From a virus, in the UHGV virus genome UHGV-2124687: a stretch of 13,465 nt of DNA; one strand, given 5' to 3'. The notes under the pieces were generated by a model. That model was not told where the DNA came from and ran no database searches. It saw only the letters and a program-made list of their open reading frames with translations. The translations under genes were made by a program, and so were the position numbers. This document shows positions 2,179 to 11,371 of the stretch, piece after piece. Every line of letters starts with the position of its first letter. Position 1 is the first letter of the stretch.

Positions 2179-2255
2179 AAACCCTCCGGTAAAAAAGGTG
2201 CCCATTGTGGGAGATGGGCAAAGACCACGCGGCACACACAGCAATTAATCACATC

Positions 2256-2321: not shown

Positions 2322-2467
2322 TGTTGCGCCCTGAAAAAGGCTGGCGGTTACCGGAAATACACGGGAAAACACCGGGCCGCCAGAACAGGGGTCTACTTCT
2401 TATTGCTTTAGCCTGCTTTTAACCACATCAGGCGCGGTGGATCCTGCTATTCCCCAACAGTCAGGAA

Positions 2468-2476
2468 TGCGATAAT
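2468..2476 (+). promoter_or_regulatory. Candidate extended -10 element (TGcGATAAT) for the plus-strand accessory gene
   Basis: TG-n-GATAAT about 20 nt upstream of the GAGG and TTG at 2495; no good -35. Confidence 0.3.
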
Positions 2477-2494
2477 CTGGACATCCGAGGTAGA

Positions 2495-2809
2495 TTGATC
2501 AGATGGTCAATCATCAGCCAATTCAATTGCAAAGGCACATCGACCATGGTTTCACTTATTCGAAATAAAGGTAATACATCCACGGGTGTGCACATGCTTC
2601 AAAGGTCTGGCAAGCAATTCAAATTCCGCTGCGATATGGATACTTTGAAACGCCTGACATCTAGAAGCGTCAAACCAGAATTTGAGTATCTTTTTCGTAA
2701 GCGAACTGATGGCGTTTATCATTCAGAACTTTTTGATTCAATTGAAGAAGGAAAAATTGTTCTTTGTCAGTTTGTTCAAAGAGTTACTGGAGAACCATGT
2801 ACCGCCTGA
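2495..2809 (+). CDS. Hypothetical protein, AT-rich accessory gene in the rexAB/sieB-equivalent position (104 aa from TTG; 87 aa if ATG at 2546)
   Basis: ORF-track ORF on the opposite strand to both neighbours; GAGG 4 nt before the TTG; strong intrinsic terminator ~55 nt downstream; low GC relative to flanks. No family recognised. Confidence 0.4.
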   Translation: MIRWSIISQFNCKGTSTMVSLIRNKGNTSTGVHMLQRSGKQFKFRCDMDTLKRLTSRSVKPEFEYLFRKRTDGVYHSELFDSIEEGKIVLCQFVQRVTGEPCTA

Positions 2810-2863
2810 ATATTGGTTAACTCAGCTACCTATGATCAGAATGTCCAGATTATTAAAGAGCGA

Positions 2864-2892
2864 AGCGTCCAGTAGGGCGCTTTTTTGTTTTT
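2864..2892 (+). terminator. Rho-independent terminator
   Basis: Stem AGCGUCC / GGGCGCU (one G-U pair), loop AGUA, then UUUUUUGUUUUU. No U-run on the other strand, so plus-strand specific. Confidence 0.6.
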
Positions 2893-3053
2893 GGCCCTGT
2901 ATCGCCAGGGTAAGCGGAACATTTGATTCTGAGTAATCACTGCGTGTGGTTACTTGATGGAATAAGGTTAAGATTGCTAACCAAGTTTGGCAAGTTGTTT
3001 TTGGTAATAAAACTAAACAAAAGAGACGTAAGAAGATAACTTACTGAAAAAGG

Positions 3054-3461
3054 TTATTTTTTTTCTGTTCGTTTGCGGGCTTTTAGGAGTTCTTCGAAGA
3101 GCTGGTTGAAGTTTTCAACTCGAGCCCGGAGATTTTGGATTTGAGCTTGTTGCTCTGATTCTGGCAAAGAGCGATAGAGCTCAAGCATCTCTTGTTCATC
3201 AACGCTTAAAGTTCTCTGCTCTTCAATTGAGACTGGTTCTGCAGGAGTCTGGTCTTCATCACCAAACAAAATCCAAGTAGGGCTGCACTGGAGCACCTTA
3301 GCAAGTGCATGCAGGTTCTTACCTGAAGGCTCTGTGTTGTCACTTTCCCATAGCGAAATAGTGGCGTGCGATATCCCGAGAGCTTTTCCAAGATCTCGCT
3401 GCGTTAACCCAACATCTTTGCGTCGACGTAATACTCGACGACCTAAAGTTTCACTATTCAT
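3054..3461 (-). CDS. dicA: DicA-like HTH (XRE-family) prophage repressor, 135 aa
   Basis: Translation has an N-terminal HTH (GLTQRDLGKALGISHATISLWE) and the tail ...AKVLQCSPTWILFGDED...LPESEQ...RARVENFNQLFEELLKARKRTEKK, closely matching my recollection of E. coli DicA (same length). Divergent from a Cro-like gene. Confidence 0.9.
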   Translation of the reverse strand: MNSETLGRRVLRRRKDVGLTQRDLGKALGISHATISLWESDNTEPSGKNLHALAKVLQCSPTWILFGDEDQTPAEPVSIEEQRTLSVDEQEMLELYRSLPESEQQAQIQNLRARVENFNQLFEELLKARKRTEKK

Positions 3462-3474
3462 GTTTAGATATCTT

Positions 3475-3496
3475 AATTCTTCTTGACTAAAGAATT
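3475..3496. promoter_or_regulatory. Candidate operator: inverted repeat AATTCTT-N8-AAGAATT with TTGACT in the spacer
   Basis: Read directly in the 82-bp divergent intergenic region; TTGACT at 3483-3488 is a -35-like hexamer pointing toward the Cro-like gene. Binding not established. Confidence 0.4.
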
Positions 3497-3543
3497 CTCA
3501 CCAAATAACCTTGTTAAATAAACTCAACAAACGAGGTTGCTTA

Positions 3544-4271: not shown

Positions 4272-4514
4272 ATGCTTGCCCAGGAATTAGTAGACCGCAT
4301 GAAAAATGCGATGAAGCACAAAGTACCGGCGGAGACAGTCGATCGCAGCGCTGAAATGATTCCGGGGATGAAATACCGCAACGAACGCGGACGCATGGTG
4401 ACGGTAATGAGAGTTTCTCATCTTCGGGTTATGTACCGATACGAAGGTTATCAGGACATCTGCGAGACCAGCCGCAGAGAGTTTGATTTGAAATTTAGAA
4501 AGGTGCAGTCGTGA
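4272..4514 (+). CDS. Hypothetical protein, 80 aa
   Basis: AGGAGG 6 nt upstream of the ATG; stop overlaps the GTG start of the replication gene (GTGA). Confidence 0.6.
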   Translation: MLAQELVDRMKNAMKHKVPAETVDRSAEMIPGMKYRNERGRMVTVMRVSHLRVMYRYEGYQDICETSRREFDLKFRKVQS

Positions 4515-5605
4515 GCAGCAAATTACACGGTCTTGTATGGGAAGGGTGCGCTCCTGCTGGATTGGGAATTTCCCGCGTTGCGCTTATGGCCCGCCTGGCT
4601 GATTACAGCAATGCTGACGGCATATCGTGGCCAGCGATTGAGACGCTCAGGATTGAGATCGGCGCTAAAAGCGATACGACAATAAAAACTGCTTTAGCTG
4701 AGCTTGTTAAGGGCGGCTGGATTAAAAAAACAGAACGCAAGCTGGGTGGAAGAAATCTGACAAATGTTTATCAGATTGATATCGCAAAACTCGAAGAAGC
4801 GGCAGCAGAGGGGCGTAAAAAAATACGGGAAGAGAGAGCCAAAAAGAAAGGTTCCCGTTGCCTGCCAGCAGGGCAGGAAGATAAGGCGTCAATTTTTGAC
4901 CCGTCAAATAATGACCCCTTAAAAGAGGATGGTAAGGGGGCAGATTTTGACCCGTCAAAAATTGAGGGGTCAAAAATTGGTGAAAACAGCGATTTAACCC
5001 CCCCAAAAATTGACCCCGATCCGTCATTAAAACCTGATCCGTCATTAAACCCCACACATAACACGCGAGGGGGAGAGGTCGAACCAGTTCATAACAATCC
5101 GGTTCCTGAATATCCCGGACAGCCTGGTATGAATTTTCCCGCCGGAGAGTCATTTGGGAAGGTCCCAATGACCATTGACTGGAAACCGTCGGCTGACTTT
5201 CGCCAGCGCGTTGGATTCTGGGGCATAACGATCCCGGATGGACTGAACCTCAGAGGCGAGCTGAACAGCTTCATTGCCTACTGGCAGCCAGAGAATAAAG
5301 TTTTTTACCAGTCGCAGTGGGAGCAGAAATTTGCCCGCCACCTGCAACAGGCCAAACCCACTAAACCGCGAGGTAACTCACATGCAGGACTGGATCCAAA
5401 CTCCACAGCAAACGCAGCTGTACAGCGAGCACGCGCAGCACACGCTGCACAACTCCGCGCTCGAGGAGAAGGCGTGGAAGTTCTGGGTTCTCATGCTGGA
5501 AATATACTCCAGCCGGTGGGAAACCAAAAACGGATCGGCTCCGTCGGACCTATGGATTGCTCAGATTGGGAATTTGACCAGCGACCGGATGACGAGCGTC
5601 TGTAA
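4511..5605 (+). CDS. Replication initiator (O-like): N-terminal DNA-binding domain, low-complexity linker, DnaT-like C-terminal domain
   Basis: GTG start coupled to the upstream gene; C-terminal block PMTIDWKPSADFRQRVGFWGITIPDGLNLRGELNSFIAYWQPENKVFYQSQWEQKFARHLQQAKP resembles the DnaT C-terminal domain. The last ~74 codons overlap the P-like gene out of frame and are Ala/Arg-rich, so the true 3' end is uncertain. Confidence 0.7.
   Translation: MSSKLHGLVWEGCAPAGLGISRVALMARLADYSNADGISWPAIETLRIEIGAKSDTTIKTALAELVKGGWIKKTERKLGGRNLTNVYQIDIAKLEEAAAEGRKKIREERAKKKGSRCLPAGQEDKASIFDPSNNDPLKEDGKGADFDPSKIEGSKIGENSDLTPPKIDPDPSLKPDPSLNPTHNTRGGEVEPVHNNPVPEYPGQPGMNFPAGESFGKVPMTIDWKPSADFRQRVGFWGITIPDGLNLRGELNSFIAYWQPENKVFYQSQWEQKFARHLQQAKPTKPRGNSHAGLDPNSTANAAVQRARAAHAAQLRARGEGVEVLGSHAGNILQPVGNQKRIGSVGPMDCSDWEFDQRPDDERL
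4893..5049. repeat. Iteron-like repeat cluster inside the initiator gene; candidate replication origin
   Basis: TTTTGACCCGTCAAA at 4894 and 4945, related TTGAGGGGTCAAAA at 4962, TTGACCCC at 5010, and GATCCGTCATTAAA twice (5018, 5035). Falls in the low-complexity linker coding region, as the lambda origin does in O. Confidence 0.55.
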
Positions 5606-8268: not shown

Positions 8269-8461
8269 TTTAGTATGGTGCTGCCCGGAGCTTCCTGTTA
8301 ATCACTATGTACTCCCGTTTAGCCACGTCATTTTAGATTTGGTTTTGGTCCGCTATGAGCGAGGAGCAGAAGTTCGTAATTCCTTTAGACAATCCTCCAG
8401 GGAGGTTATGATAAAATATACAGCCATAAAGCCTATAGGGAGTGGACATGACATTGTTTGA
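8237..8461 (+). CDS. Hypothetical protein, 74 aa (weakly supported)
   Basis: ORF-track ORF overlapping its neighbours by 32 nt and 20 nt; weak RBS. May be a frameshifted remnant. Confidence 0.25.
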   Translation: MKQRLPLARTDLVWCCPELPVNHYVLPFSHVILDLVLVRYERGAEVRNSFRQSSREVMIKYTAIKPIGSGHDIV

Positions 8462-8822
8462 GGAATGTAAGGAACTGCTCAAGACAGATTTTAATGTTGT
8501 GGAAGGGGATGATTTGAGCGCGATAATGGATATTTTTCATCAATATCCATGGCATAGCGGTAATCTCAGATGGTCGGAAATGGACTTCAGCGATTATGAA
8601 CTTAGTCATGATATGTTTAACGGGGGCGGTTTAGGCAATGAAACTGTATTTGTCATAGCGGATGATGCGAATGTACCCGTGTTCAGAACCCATCTACAAC
8701 TCATTGTCGATAATATCTACGATGTCATCGCCATATCACCTAACCTATTTATTTTTAATGATAAAATAATGATTAAACCTTTATTCCCTCATAATTATAT
8801 ACGGTTTGGTCTGCGAAAGTGA
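8442..8822 (+). CDS. Hypothetical protein, 126 aa, strongly AT-rich
   Basis: GGGAG upstream of the ATG; AT-rich codon usage unlike the phage backbone. Immunity-protein-like is only a guess; no family recognised. Confidence 0.45.
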   Translation: MDMTLFEECKELLKTDFNVVEGDDLSAIMDIFHQYPWHSGNLRWSEMDFSDYELSHDMFNGGGLGNETVFVIADDANVPVFRTHLQLIVDNIYDVIAISPNLFIFNDKIMIKPLFPHNYIRFGLRK

Positions 8823-9091: not shown

Positions 9092-9587
9092 TCAAAGTGT
9101 CATCATCATTTCATGCCATGCCATTCCACCGTGGTCCGATTCTGACGGTTTGATGTACTGGTAACCAAAATGGGCGTACAGATCGACGTGGCGGTCTTTG
9201 CACATCAGGTGAATGGTTTTTTTGTTCATTGCTATCATGCGCGTCACAAATTCACGCATCAGTAATGATGAATATCCTTTGCCCTGGTAATCAGGGTGCA
9301 CCACGACAGACATAATCACTGCATTGGGTGCATCCGGATCGTGACCTACCAGTTCTTTGAACTCTTCGTCGGACATCACGACTTCCCACGCACAGCCCGC
9401 ATTAATGAAACCAATAACGTCACCGTTCAACTCCATGCATANNNNNNNNNNNNNNNNNNNNNNNNNNNNNNNNNNNNNNNNNNNNNNNNNNNNNNNNNNN
9501 NNNNNNNNNNNNNNNNNNTGTGATTTCAATATCATAGCAACGATCAACATCGGCATCAGTGGCCTGACGGAATACAGGGGTAGACAT
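9092..9587 (-). CDS. GNAT-family N-acetyltransferase, interrupted by the N run
   Basis: Start reconstructed by hand at 9587 (MSTPVFRQATDADVDRCYDIEIT...), upstream of the track ORF 9092..9556; downstream part has a GNAT-like core (HPDYQGKGYSSLLMREFV). Frame across the gap is undefined. Confidence 0.8.
9442..9518. other. Run of 77 N (gap or masked bases) inside the GNAT gene
   Basis: Literal n characters in the sequence. Confidence 1.
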
Positions 9588-9723: not shown

Positions 9724-10695
9724 ATGATGTCAACGTTGCGCAAGATCGATCTGAATTTATTGCTTATATTCGATTCTCTTTATCGGCATGGAAGCGTGAC
9801 GGAGGCCGCCAACGAACTGGCACTAAGCCCATCCGCACTAAGTCATGCGCTCAATCGCTTACGTACATCACTGGACGATCCCTTATTCGTGCGCACTGGT
9901 GGAAGCATGGTGCCCACGTCAAAAGCTGAAAGCATTGCAGCAAGTATTTCTGCCGCTCTAGGAAGTCTCTCGTCCTGCCTGCATGAGCCAGAACACTTTG
10001 AGCCGGAAAAAAGCCGGGAGAGTTTTACCTTTGCTGCTACGGACTACACTGCCGCCGCTATCCTGCCAAGCTTGATCGCGAGGGTTAACAGCCTTGCGCC
10101 GGGCATTACCATTAAGCTTATCTACTCACGCGATTTTAACGCCGACGAAGATTTGCTTTCAGGCAAAGTTGATTTCGCCCTTGGCTTTGAAGAAGAGCAG
10201 AAAGCCCCACGGCGCGGCATAGAGTCGATTACTTGCTTTACTGATGATTACGTGGTTGCAGTGCGACGCGGTCATCCTAATATCCAGGATTCCCTTACCC
10301 AAGAGCGTTATCTGAGCGCCGGACACGTAGTGGTGCGTCCATGGTTGGAAAGACGGGGGGGGATCGACCGTTATCTGGAAAGTCAGCAGGTACGTCGCCG
10401 GGTCGTTGTTGAATTGCCAAGCCTGATGATTGCCCCAATTATCGTTTCGAATACTGATCTGGTTATCACGCTTCCCAAGCGGGGGATCTCATCAGTTTTT
10501 GATATGAAAAATCTGGTGGTGTTTGCTCCCCCGTTCCCGACACCACAGTACATTTTGAAAGCCTATTACAGCCCGGCACTCGGTAACTCGCCAGGGCATA
10601 TATGGATGAGGGGGCAAATTTTGCAGGTTTGTGATCCGCTAAATCCGGCGATGCCAGTAATTGCTGTCGATACAAATTCTGGTACAGAAAGGTAA
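9724..10695 (+). CDS. LysR-family transcriptional regulator, 323 aa
   Basis: N-terminal LysR-type HTH (KIDLNLLLIFDSLYRHGSVTEAANELALSPSALSHALNRLR) and typical length; divergent from the GNAT gene across a 136-bp AT-rich region. Confidence 0.9.
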   Translation: MMSTLRKIDLNLLLIFDSLYRHGSVTEAANELALSPSALSHALNRLRTSLDDPLFVRTGGSMVPTSKAESIAASISAALGSLSSCLHEPEHFEPEKSRESFTFAATDYTAAAILPSLIARVNSLAPGITIKLIYSRDFNADEDLLSGKVDFALGFEEEQKAPRRGIESITCFTDDYVVAVRRGHPNIQDSLTQERYLSAGHVVVRPWLERRGGIDRYLESQQVRRRVVVELPSLMIAPIIVSNTDLVITLPKRGISSVFDMKNLVVFAPPFPTPQYILKAYYSPALGNSPGHIWMRGQILQVCDPLNPAMPVIAVDTNSGTER

Positions 10696-10911: not shown

Positions 10912-11029
10912 CACACAGTTGCTCACTGATGATGCAATAGTGAGGGCGAATCTCTCGGATTGTGCCAGCAGAAAGAAACTGCCGCATAATAAAACACTGC
11001 TAATTCAACCCGCTACGGCGGGTTTTTTT
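10912..11029 (+). ncRNA. Copy B of the ~100-nt element, ending in a perfect intrinsic terminator (candidate sRNA)
   Basis: Homologous to 7608-7722; terminator AACCCGC-UACG-GCGGGUU then seven U at 11007-11029. Lies between the LysR stop and the dinI promoter with no ORF. Confidence 0.3.
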
Positions 11030-11096
11030 GTTTTACTCCTGACAGGAAATTAACAATTTGTGCTCTTAAAACGTTGATCATTTCCGTGCATGAGTA

Positions 11097-11116
11097 TACT
11101 GTATAAAAAAACAGTA
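11097..11116. promoter_or_regulatory. LexA box (SOS operator) over the dinI promoter
   Basis: TACTGTATAAAAAAACAGTA matches the CTGT-N8-ACAG consensus; overlaps a TATACT -10-like hexamer (11095-11100) with TTGATC at 11074-11079. Confidence 0.75.
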
Positions 11117-11134
11117 TATGCAATGGAGGCCATT

Positions 11135-11371
11135 ATGAAAGTTGAATTAACCATTGATCGCATGAAAGAACTTCCTAAAGGCGCGGTTCCAGCACTGGAG
11201 AAAGAATTACTTAACCGCCTGAATGATCACTATGACAATTGCAGGCTTACAATCCGGCGCGCAGGGTCGAATGGGTTAAGTGTTTTTGGCGGTGACAAGG
11301 ACGATAAAAAGAAAATTGAATCAATCCTCCAGGATACCTGGGAAAGTGCAGACGAGTGGTTTGTTAATTAA
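11135..11371 (+). CDS. dinI: DinI-family DNA-damage-inducible protein, 78 aa
   Basis: GGAGG 5 nt upstream of the ATG; MKVELTIDRMKELPKGAVPALEKEL...LSVFGGDKDDKKKIESILQDTWESADEWFVN closely matches recalled E. coli DinI. Confidence 0.9.
   Translation: MKVELTIDRMKELPKGAVPALEKELLNRLNDHYDNCRLTIRRAGSNGLSVFGGDKDDKKKIESILQDTWESADEWFVN

What the first reader, a model, noticed from the sequence alone, without database searches (positions are those of the whole stretch)
2440..2900. Self-contained AT-rich gene on the opposite strand, in the rexAB/sieB-equivalent slot
A ~90-100 aa ORF with its own extended -10, SD and a strong terminator is inserted antiparallel between the early-left genes and the repressor. 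That slot is where lambdoid prophages usually carry superinfection-exclusion or defence morons, and I recognise no family for this protein, so it is a candidate uncharacterised exclusion or defence gene.
Basis: partly seen in the sequence, partly recalled or inferred. Interest (0 to 1): 0.6.

Follow-up and report, generated by a model that had tools for sequence, protein, structure and literature searches.

The report
Prophage moron encoding AP2-like protein
This is a real, self-contained accessory gene that Citrobacter-type prophages carry next to their repressor; it encodes a rare 87-residue protein predicted to fold like an AP2-type DNA-binding domain, it sits in a plug-in slot that holds other unknown genes in related prophages, and its suspected role in phage exclusion or gene silencing is untested.

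Summary
ORF 2546..2809 (+) is a genuine 87-aa gene: dN/dS is 0.09-0.12 and every homologue is 85-93 aa. It has a TGcGATAAT -10 element, a modest SD and a 9-bp-stem/T-run terminator. It lies antiparallel between the early-left genes and a 135-aa HTH repressor.

The segment 2412..2889 is 96.7% identical in prophages with unrelated repressors and integrases. The same flanks hold other cargo genes elsewhere, so this is a variable moron slot.

Unexpectedly, the terminator-side flank read on the minus strand is an rrn-type boxA, downstream of a candidate PL. A covarying 11-17 bp inverted repeat brackets the cargo. The moron therefore appears to lie antisense inside a boxA-protected early-left leader.

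The parts
2412..2471 (+). Conserved left frame of the slot (GCTTTTAACCACATCAGG..GGTGGATCCTGCTATTCCCCAAC...). It is shared with prophages that carry other cargo.
   Evidence: 2380-2452 matches 45 E. coli records. E. coli 1943 matches through 2481. L006/L009 match from 2412.
2468..2478 (+). Putative moron promoter -10: TGcGATAAT extended -10, overlapping the TAATCT hexamer that is conserved in all cassettes. Predicted TSS is about 2483-2486.
   Evidence: Read directly. Conservation and variation. Not flagged by the two-hexamer scan.
2472..2484 (.). Left arm of the cargo-bracketing inverted repeat (ATAATCTGGACAT).
   Evidence: 13/13 complementary, 356 nt apart. Covariation across 27 distinct arm pairs.
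2531..2535 (+). Shine-Dalgarno-like AAAGG, 10 nt upstream of the ATG.
   Evidence: Read directly.
2546..2809 (+). CDS of the 87-aa protein (stop TGA 2807-2809). The predicted fold is AP2-like: beta-beta-[two-helix insert]-beta-alpha.
2841..2853 (.). Right arm of the inverted repeat (ATGTCCAGATTAT).
2850..2862 (-). rrn-type boxA on the minus strand: CGCTCTTTAATAA. Other cassettes read CGCTCTTTAACAAT.
   Evidence: single exact match in the window. Sequence of rrn boxA plus spacer from PMC2724277. Conserved in all slot cassettes.
2862..2892 (+). Intrinsic terminator of the moron (GAAGCGTCC-AGTA-GGGCGCTTT plus T-run). On the minus strand the same hairpin precedes boxA and has no U-tract after it.
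   Evidence: Conserved across cassettes with different cargo.
2965..2993 (-). Candidate early-left promoter PL (TTGCCA-17 nt-TAACCT), with an AAGGTTA operator-like half-site over the -10. It lies outside the cassette but sets its context.
   Evidence: Read. It mirrors PR, TTGACT-17-TAACCT at 3483-3511. Repeats D7, I1, I2. The immunity-specific region starts at about 2960.

Best explanation
The segment is a moron, an independently transcribed accessory gene. It is plugged into the variable slot between the early-left operon and the repressor of an N-less, Rac/e14-like lambdoid prophage of Citrobacter.

Shown: it is a real protein-coding gene under purifying selection. It moves as a 478-bp unit between prophages with different immunity. 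The slot holds other cargo genes elsewhere.

Inferred: in the lysogen it is transcribed rightward from its own -10-dominated promoter and stopped by its terminator. On induction, leftward transcription from PL (about 2958) runs antisense through it and should shut it down by interference.

Predicted: the product is a small, soluble protein with a basic N-terminal half. Its core is an AP2/integrase-arm-type three-stranded sheet plus helix, carrying a two-helix insertion.

Committed guess: it binds a specific DNA (or RNA) sequence through the basic sheet and blocks transcription of a target outside the cassette. Candidate targets are an incoming competitor phage, a host immune locus or a host gene. 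That would make it a lysogen-expressed silencer rather than a membrane-type exclusion protein.
For: Coding and selection.

Mobility and slot: the identical protein sits beside 135-aa and 138-aa HTH repressors and 224-aa and 239-aa S24 repressors, with different integrases. The shared DNA is limited to 2412..2889. Other cargo lies between the same flanks.

Promoter, terminator, composition.

Charge: 13 K+R against 5 D+E in residues 1-55; pI 9.4; no hydrophobic segment.

Precedent: prophage-encoded AP2-domain proteins (CasPRs) silence cas genes during lysogeny (bioRxiv 10.64898/2026.02.23.707548).

PL context.

Against: AP2 signature Trp/Arg contacts cannot be mapped here. The 25-residue insertion between strands 2 and 3 is not seen in AP2 domains.

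No target site, no expression data and no phenotype are available. The -10 is not conserved in sister cassettes.

Other cargos of the same slot include 2-TM and secreted proteins. Slot membership therefore says nothing specific about mechanism.
Confidence: 0.4

Rival explanations
1. It is a phage-defence or superinfection-exclusion effector that acts through protein-protein contacts or abortive infection, not through DNA binding.
For: It occupies the same hotspot as rexAB and bstA. It is a single-gene cassette with its own promoter, apparently built for expression in the lysogen. It is rare and patchily distributed, as defence genes are.
Confidence: 0.2
2. It serves the prophage's own regulation, for example by modulating PL/early-left expression, antitermination, excision (as a decoy of an integrase arm-binding domain) or the lysis-lysogeny switch.
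Against: The identical protein accompanies at least four different repressor types and three integrase types. Related prophages do without it and carry unrelated cargo in the slot. Distant homologues sit next to tail-fibre genes or in a non-lambdoid element.
Confidence: 0.15
3. It is a stand-alone remnant, or a domesticated copy, of the DNA-binding module of a phage HNH-AP2 homing endonuclease. It would be kept because it occupies a homing or cleavage site.
For: The Foldseek BFVD hit list is dominated by phage HNH endonucleases and AP2-domain proteins. The N-terminal NTSTG(V/I)H motif recalls, from my memory and untested here, the NTSG(Y)KGV start of bacterial AP2 modules.
Against: All BFVD hits are statistically weak (E >= 0.09). 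No Pfam AP2 or HNH match exists. No neighbouring nuclease fragment is present. Strong purifying selection over the full length argues against a decaying remnant.
Confidence: 0.1
4. The ORF is not a functional gene. Conservation would then reflect the antisense early-left leader RNA (boxA plus long-range helix) rather than a protein.
For: The whole cassette lies inside a structured, boxA-headed PL leader. The predicted fold of that leader is unusually stable (z = -4.0).
Against: dN/dS is 0.09-0.12 with saturated dS. Length is conserved at 85-93 aa down to about 30% identity. There are 45 invariant residues among 5 close homologues. Homologues also occur outside this slot. The gene models fold confidently.
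Confidence: 0.03

Closest known systems
Morons of the lambdoid repressor-proximal hotspot (lambda rexAB, lambda/P22/Rac sieB, Salmonella BTP1 bstA)
   Same: It occupies the same region between the repressor and the early-left genes, which is described as a hotspot of mosaic diversity (PMC8585504). It is an accessory gene apparently built for expression in the lysogen. Like sieB (my knowledge of the lambda and Rac maps), it is oriented against the PL operon.
   Different: There is no sequence or profile relation. rexAB and bstA lie downstream of cI, are co-oriented with it and share its promoter, whereas this gene is convergent with the repressor and has its own promoter. SieB and RexB are membrane proteins, whereas this one is soluble and basic.
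AP2/ERF DNA-binding domain (Pfam PF00847; PDB 7et4, 7wq5, 2gcc) and the AP2 modules of phage HNH homing endonucleases
   Different: No member matches the Pfam AP2 model. A 25-residue two-helix insertion lies between strands 2 and 3. The conserved Trp residues of plant AP2 are absent. The protein is a stand-alone 87-aa unit.
CasPRs (phage-encoded CapR+AP2 repressors of cas genes; bioRxiv 10.64898/2026.02.23.707548)
   Same: They are prophage-encoded proteins containing an AP2-type domain. They act in lysogeny by binding DNA and blocking transcription of a defence locus, which is the mode of action I propose.
   Different: CasPRs are defined by a CapR zinc-finger domain plus AP2. They sit in acr loci and are essentially confined to Bacillota. 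This protein has no CapR domain and no Cys cluster, occurs in Enterobacteriaceae, and lies in the PL-leader slot.
Arm-type DNA-binding domains of tyrosine integrases (lambda Int 2wcc, HPI Int 3jtz, Tn916 Int 1bb8)
   Different: Their scores are lower than for AP2. There is no catalytic domain and no Pfam Arm-DNA-bind match.
rrn leader antitermination element (hairpin-boxA-spacer) and lambda nutL
   Same: On the minus strand the slot's right frame reads hairpin - CGCUCUUUAA(U/C)AAU. This equals rrn boxA UGCUCUUUA plus the spacer start ACAAU (PMC2724277). It lies about 95 nt downstream of a candidate PL. As with the 16S processing stem, boxA is followed by one arm of a long-range helix whose partner lies beyond the intervening RNA.
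   Different: No N-like protein or lambda-type boxB is evident. The helix is only 11-17 bp. Function in antitermination or processing is untested. The intervening RNA is the antisense of a protein-coding moron.

Membership tests
Moron (independent accessory transcription unit in a prophage) | Present in some and absent from other, otherwise related phages at the same position. | tested here: met
   The same flanks hold the 87-aa gene (L006, L013, L026), a 166-aa gene (L019), a ClpX-ZnF gene (L020, L021) and others.
Moron (independent accessory transcription unit in a prophage) | Own promoter upstream and own terminator downstream. | tested here: inconclusive
   The terminator is clear. The promoter is only a consensus match: TGcGATAAT here and TAATCT in all cassettes. 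It was not flagged by the two-hexamer scan, and there are no expression data.
Moron (independent accessory transcription unit in a prophage) | Base composition differs from the surrounding genome. | tested here: met
   The gene is 39.0% GC and the cassette 41.8%, against 47.2% for the window.
AP2/ERF DNA-binding domain | Significant match to the family's sequence profile (Pfam PF00847 or related AP2-like integrase models). | tested here: not met
   None of 13 family members hit any AP2 or Arm-DNA-bind model at E<=10. The PDB profile search finds no AP2 chain.
AP2/ERF DNA-binding domain | Three-stranded antiparallel beta-sheet packed against an alpha-helix. | tested here: met
AP2/ERF DNA-binding domain | Sequence-specific DNA binding through Arg/Trp residues of the sheet. 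| not testable with these tools
   Conserved basic residues (R20, K26, R28) lie in the sheet region, but no Trp is present. Binding was not assayed.
Known exclusion/defence proteins (SieB, RexA/B, BstA, PADLOC families) | Profile match to a known defence family. | tested here: not met
   PADLOC, Pfam and PHROGs give no hits.
Known exclusion/defence proteins (SieB, RexA/B, BstA, PADLOC families) | Membrane-spanning segments (SieB, RexB type). | tested here: not met
   The maximum Kyte-Doolittle 19-residue window is 0.54 and GRAVY is -0.5.
Known exclusion/defence proteins (SieB, RexA/B, BstA, PADLOC families) | Protects the lysogen against superinfecting phage. | not testable with these tools
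   This needs plaque or efficiency-of-plating assays.
CasPR (CapR+AP2 cas-gene repressors) | N-terminal CapR zinc-finger domain with conserved Cys cluster, together with AP2. | tested here: not met
   The 87 aa leave no room for a CapR domain. Only C29 and C85 are conserved among close homologues and both are lost in distant ones.
rrn-type boxA / nut-like antitermination site (for the slot's right frame, minus strand) | BoxA consensus GCUCUUUA followed by an A-rich spacer. | tested here: met
   GCTCTTTAATAA lies at 2861->2850, the single exact match in the window. Other cassettes read GCTCTTTAACAAT, identical to the rrn sequence in PMC2724277.
rrn-type boxA / nut-like antitermination site (for the slot's right frame, minus strand) | Located in a transcript, downstream of a promoter, and conferring Nus-dependent read-through. 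| not testable with these tools
   The candidate PL TTGCCA-17-TAACCT at 2993->2965 is inferred from its similarity to PR. No transcript or Nus data are available.

The most novel reading that the evidence does not exclude
Two linked readings are not excluded.

(1) The slot is a generic plug-in socket built like a miniature rrn operon. PL is followed by a hairpin, an rrn-type boxA and one arm of a covarying long-range helix. Then come the antisense cargo, the other arm and the early genes. In this reading the Nus/boxA complex shields the long untranslated antisense stretch from Rho. It also helps close a helix that loops out, or lets RNase III excise, whatever moron is inserted. That would let N-less lambdoid prophages swap lysogen-expressed genes without breaking early-left expression.

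(2) The 87-aa cargo founds a new enterobacterial family of stand-alone AP2-like DNA binders. These would silence a competitor phage or a host immune locus during lysogeny, functionally parallel to CasPRs.
Probability: 0.2. Interest if true: 0.75.

Novelty: new member of a known kind. Interest (0 to 1): 0.55.

Why it matters
The repressor-proximal hotspot of lambdoid prophages has already yielded RexAB and BstA. Here it carries a protein family that no database names, and the family is very rare (12 representatives among 1.84 billion). Its predicted AP2-like DNA-binding fold makes a concrete, cheap hypothesis testable: ChIP or EMSA plus plaque assays.

More broadly, the conserved frame of this slot can be searched as a DNA signature. 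The frame consists of the promoter side, a covarying inverted repeat, and boxA with its hairpin. In one scan it pulled out at least seven unrelated cargo families, all of unknown function. The slot could therefore serve as a discovery handle for lysogen-expressed accessory, exclusion or anti-defence genes in Enterobacteriaceae, much as the P2/P4 hotspots did.

The boxA-plus-long-range-helix arrangement, if functional, would show how a prophage tolerates antisense cargo inside its early leader.

Tried and rejected
1. DNA similarity. Megablast of 2380-2960 against INPHARED phages and 5,426 complete E. coli genomes found only the left frame (2380-2452/2481), never the gene. tblastn against phages gave only chance-level Lak-phage hits (E 0.3).

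2. Rfam. No family matched in or near the cassette at E<=1.

3. Pfam, PHROGs, PADLOC. Nothing matched the protein or its 12 relatives.

5. The inverted repeat as an operator for the cargo's own product. Rejected, because cassettes with unrelated cargo keep the same architecture with their own covarying arms.

6. The inverted repeat as transposon ends, an invertible segment or Xer/dif-like sites. I considered these by eye only. No orientation variants, transposase or convincing dif arms were seen. They are not excluded but have no support.

7. An 'empty' slot (AATCTGG...CCAGATT hairpin without cargo). None was found among 152 loci.

8. GTDB species representatives. Only one distant copy turned up, in a Raoultella MAG. 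The afdb50 fold library was unavailable.

9. Strand of the helix. Wobble-compatible mismatches lean towards the minus strand (14 against 4), but they sit mostly at the helix end. This is inconclusive.

Full report
THE OBSERVATION

The window carries an open frame at 2495..2809 on the plus strand. The real start is ATG 2546, which gives 87 aa. All five close homologues are 87-88 aa and begin at the equivalent Met. The in-frame upstream stretch is unrelated in the L013 copy.

The gene is under strong purifying selection. dN/dS is 0.09-0.12 between the window, L017, L013 and L011 copies, with synonymous sites at or near saturation. The three differences between the window and L006 inside the CDS are all synonymous.

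The gene is AT-rich: 39.0% GC against 47.2% for the window. Upstream lies TGcGATAAT at 2468-2476 and AAAGG at 2531-2535. Downstream lies a 9-pair hairpin at 2862-2883 followed by a T-run.

Small early-left genes lie on the minus strand. A 135-aa HTH_3 repressor lies at 3054..3461 (minus), followed by a P22_Cro-type gene, a YdaT/cII-like gene, a DUF4222 gene and a DnaT/O-like replication gene. This is an N-less, Rac/e14-like lambdoid early region.

One caveat concerns the promoter. The generic sigma-70 scan does not flag it. Sister cassettes carry GGTTAAT or TGTTAAT where the window has GATAAT. The element conserved in all of them is TAATCT at 2473-2478. Promoter activity is therefore plausible but unproven.

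MOBILITY AND THE SLOT

The exact protein is on record in hundreds of Citrobacter contigs, and every source calls it 'hypothetical protein'. In ten loci it always sits between the leftward early operon and the repressor. The repressors differ (135-aa and 138-aa HTH_3; 224-aa and 239-aa S24/cI-type), and so do the integrases and attachment sites.

Against the prophages with S24 repressors, the only shared DNA is window 2412..2889, at 96.7% identity. That stretch ends exactly after the terminator T-run.

The left frame (2380-2452, and up to 2481 in one case) recurs in 45 E. coli records that lack the gene. In E. coli 1943, the same promoter-side and terminator-side frames enclose a 166-aa two-TM protein. 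In Nissle 1917 the slot holds a ClpX-type zinc-finger gene on the other strand.

Scanning IMG/VR for the right-frame 17-mer returned more than 120 contigs. Of the 143 right-frame matches across all loci held, 84 had a recognisable slot, with 52 distinct cargo sequences falling into at least seven unrelated protein families. None of the other cargos has a significant Pfam hit above threshold or any PADLOC hit. Those that are in PHROGs belong to families of 'unknown function'.

The region between repressor and early-left genes is already described as a hotspot of mosaic diversity holding rexAB and bstA (PMC8585504).

THE PROTEIN

No Pfam, PHROG or PADLOC model matches it. An exhaustive profile search of 1.84 billion representatives found only 12 relatives. 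One distant copy exists among 185,579 GTDB species representatives, and none in 50,697 phage records.

Distant 93-aa relatives sit beside tail-fibre genes. Others lie in a resolvase/integrase element or next to an integrase fragment. These are again accessory positions.

The protein is soluble (maximum hydropathy window 0.54) with pI 9.4. Residues 1-55 hold 13 K+R against 5 D+E.

HOW IT MOST LIKELY WORKS

Shown: it is a mobile, selected, single-gene cassette in a variable slot.

Inferred: it is transcribed rightward in the lysogen and terminated at 2862-2892.

A candidate early-left promoter lies just right of the cassette on the minus strand, TTGCCA-17-TAACCT at 2993->2965. It mirrors PR, TTGACT-17-TAACCT at 3483-3511. 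Both carry AAGGTTA/TAACCTT operator-like half-sites, and immunity-specific sequence begins at about 2960. Induction should therefore send RNA polymerase antisense through the moron and silence it. That would restrict the protein to lysogeny.

Given the basic AP2-like sheet, my committed guess is sequence-specific nucleic-acid binding that blocks transcription of a target outside the cassette: a competitor phage, a host immune locus or a host gene. A precedent exists. Prophage CasPRs use an AP2 domain (with a CapR domain) to silence cas genes during lysogeny. This protein lacks CapR and is not a CasPR.

The rivals are scored in the report sections: a non-DNA-binding defence effector, a regulator of the prophage itself, a homing-endonuclease DNA-binding remnant, and a non-coding reading. 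The last is contradicted by the selection data.

AN UNEXPECTED FEATURE OF THE FRAME

Read on the minus strand, the conserved right frame is CGCTCTTTAATAA at 2862->2850. Other cassettes read CGCTCTTTAACAAT. This is the rrn-type boxA UGCUCUUUA plus the start of its spacer, ACAAU (PMC2724277). It is the only exact match in the window. The moron's terminator hairpin lies just upstream of it on that strand and has no U-tract after it, so it should not stop leftward transcription.

Immediately after boxA comes one arm of an inverted repeat (2853->2841). Its partner (2484->2472) lies on the far side of the cargo, and the two are 13/13 complementary. Across 27 distinct arm pairs, the outer seven positions are constant and the inner seven vary. 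91% of cells pair, all seven variable pairs show double-sided changes, and no shuffle out of 500 reaches the observed values. The shuffles keep column make-up but not the relatedness of the sequences.

Cassettes with unrelated cargo keep the helix with their own sequences. It is therefore a property of the slot, not of the 87-aa protein.

Folding the 789-nt putative PL leader puts the two arms together in both the MFE and the centroid structure, with an overall z-score of -4.0. Wobble-compatible mismatches lean towards the minus strand, 14 against 4, which is weak evidence.

The arrangement recalls the rrn leader, where boxA precedes one strand of the long-range 16S processing stem (my knowledge). 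It suggests boxA/Nus protection of a long untranslated antisense stretch from Rho, plus looping-out or RNase III excision of the insert. This is hypothesis only.

VERDICT

As a thing, it is a new member of a known kind, a lysogen-type moron of the repressor-proximal hotspot, encoding an unnamed and very rare protein family with an AP2-like fold. Interest is moderate. It would be raised by the searchable slot frame and by the boxA/long-range-helix architecture, should those prove functional.

Noticed in passing
window 2850-2862 (minus strand): There is an rrn-type boxA (CGCTCTTTAATAA; GCTCTTTAACAAT in sister cassettes) on the strand opposite to the moron, right next to the moron's terminator hairpin. 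It is the only exact match in the window.
   Followed up: partly
window 2472-2484 and 2841-2853; also L011, L013, L019, L026, L027 and IMG/VR loci L033-L152: An inverted repeat brackets the cargo. The outer core AATCTGG/CCAGATT is constant and the inner part covaries between cassettes, including cassettes with unrelated cargo. 91% of cells pair, and 7 of 7 variable pairs show double-sided changes.
   Followed up: partly
window 2965-2993 (minus) and 3483-3511 (plus): Candidate PL (TTGCCA-17-TAACCT) mirrors PR (TTGACT-17-TAACCT). AAGGTTA/TAACCTT half-sites at 2964-2970, 3050-3056 and 3506-3512 look like operators of the 135-aa repressor.
   Followed up: partly
window 2341-2383, 2256-2321, 2199-2220 (read on the minus strand): Three strong hairpins lie in the leader before the first early-left gene (ATG 2178). 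The first and third are followed by U-runs and so look like terminators. The middle one has a 14-bp perfect stem. No N-like protein is evident, so how leftward transcription passes them is unexplained.
   Followed up: no
window 2934-2948 with 2232-2250 (minus-strand RNA): The predicted fold of the PL leader pairs its 5' end with sequence just upstream of the first early-left gene. This outer long-range helix encloses the whole leader. It is a prediction only, and its conservation was not checked.
   Followed up: no
L019 3213-3713; IMG/VR loci such as L109, L055, L045, L121, L039, L152: The same slot frame holds at least six other cargo families. These are a 148-166-aa 2-TM 'M(N/T/D)RDD' family (phrog_6315), a 156-175-aa coiled-coil protein with a weak TerY_C-like C-terminal match (E 0.0055, below the Pfam cut-off) (phrog_1244), a 144-148-aa family (phrog_5286), a 170-aa LprI-like protein with an N-terminal signal-peptide-like segment (phrog_7681) and a 98-aa orphan. 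All are of unknown function with no PADLOC hit.
   Followed up: partly
L029 692-973, L030 2583-2864, L031 5001-5282: Distant 93-aa homologues of the 87-aa protein sit as isolated genes next to tail-fibre genes, with their own terminators. That is a second classical moron position.
   Followed up: partly
window 4887-4982 (inside the DnaT/O-like replication gene 4511..5605): A long, near-perfect hairpin or inverted repeat was picked up as a spurious miRNA-family hit in Rfam (25 bits, far below threshold). It lies in a region encoding repeated 'DPS..' peptides and could be origin iterons.
   Followed up: no
window 10942-11035 (plus strand): There are weak sub-threshold Rfam matches to Hfq-binding sRNAs (TarB 25.7 bits, isrK 20.7 bits), ending in a clear terminator hairpin (AACCCGC-TACG-GCGGGTTTTTTT). 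This may be a prophage sRNA or just a terminator upstream of the 11090..11371 ORF.
   Followed up: no
window 8442-8822, 9092-9556 (minus), 9724-10695: The rightward region of the prophage carries further apparent cargo. By correspondence with the called genes of L001, these are a CdiI_ImmP-type immunity protein, a GNAT acetyltransferase on the opposite strand and a LysR-type regulator. Relatives L002-L005 have other genes there.
   Followed up: no
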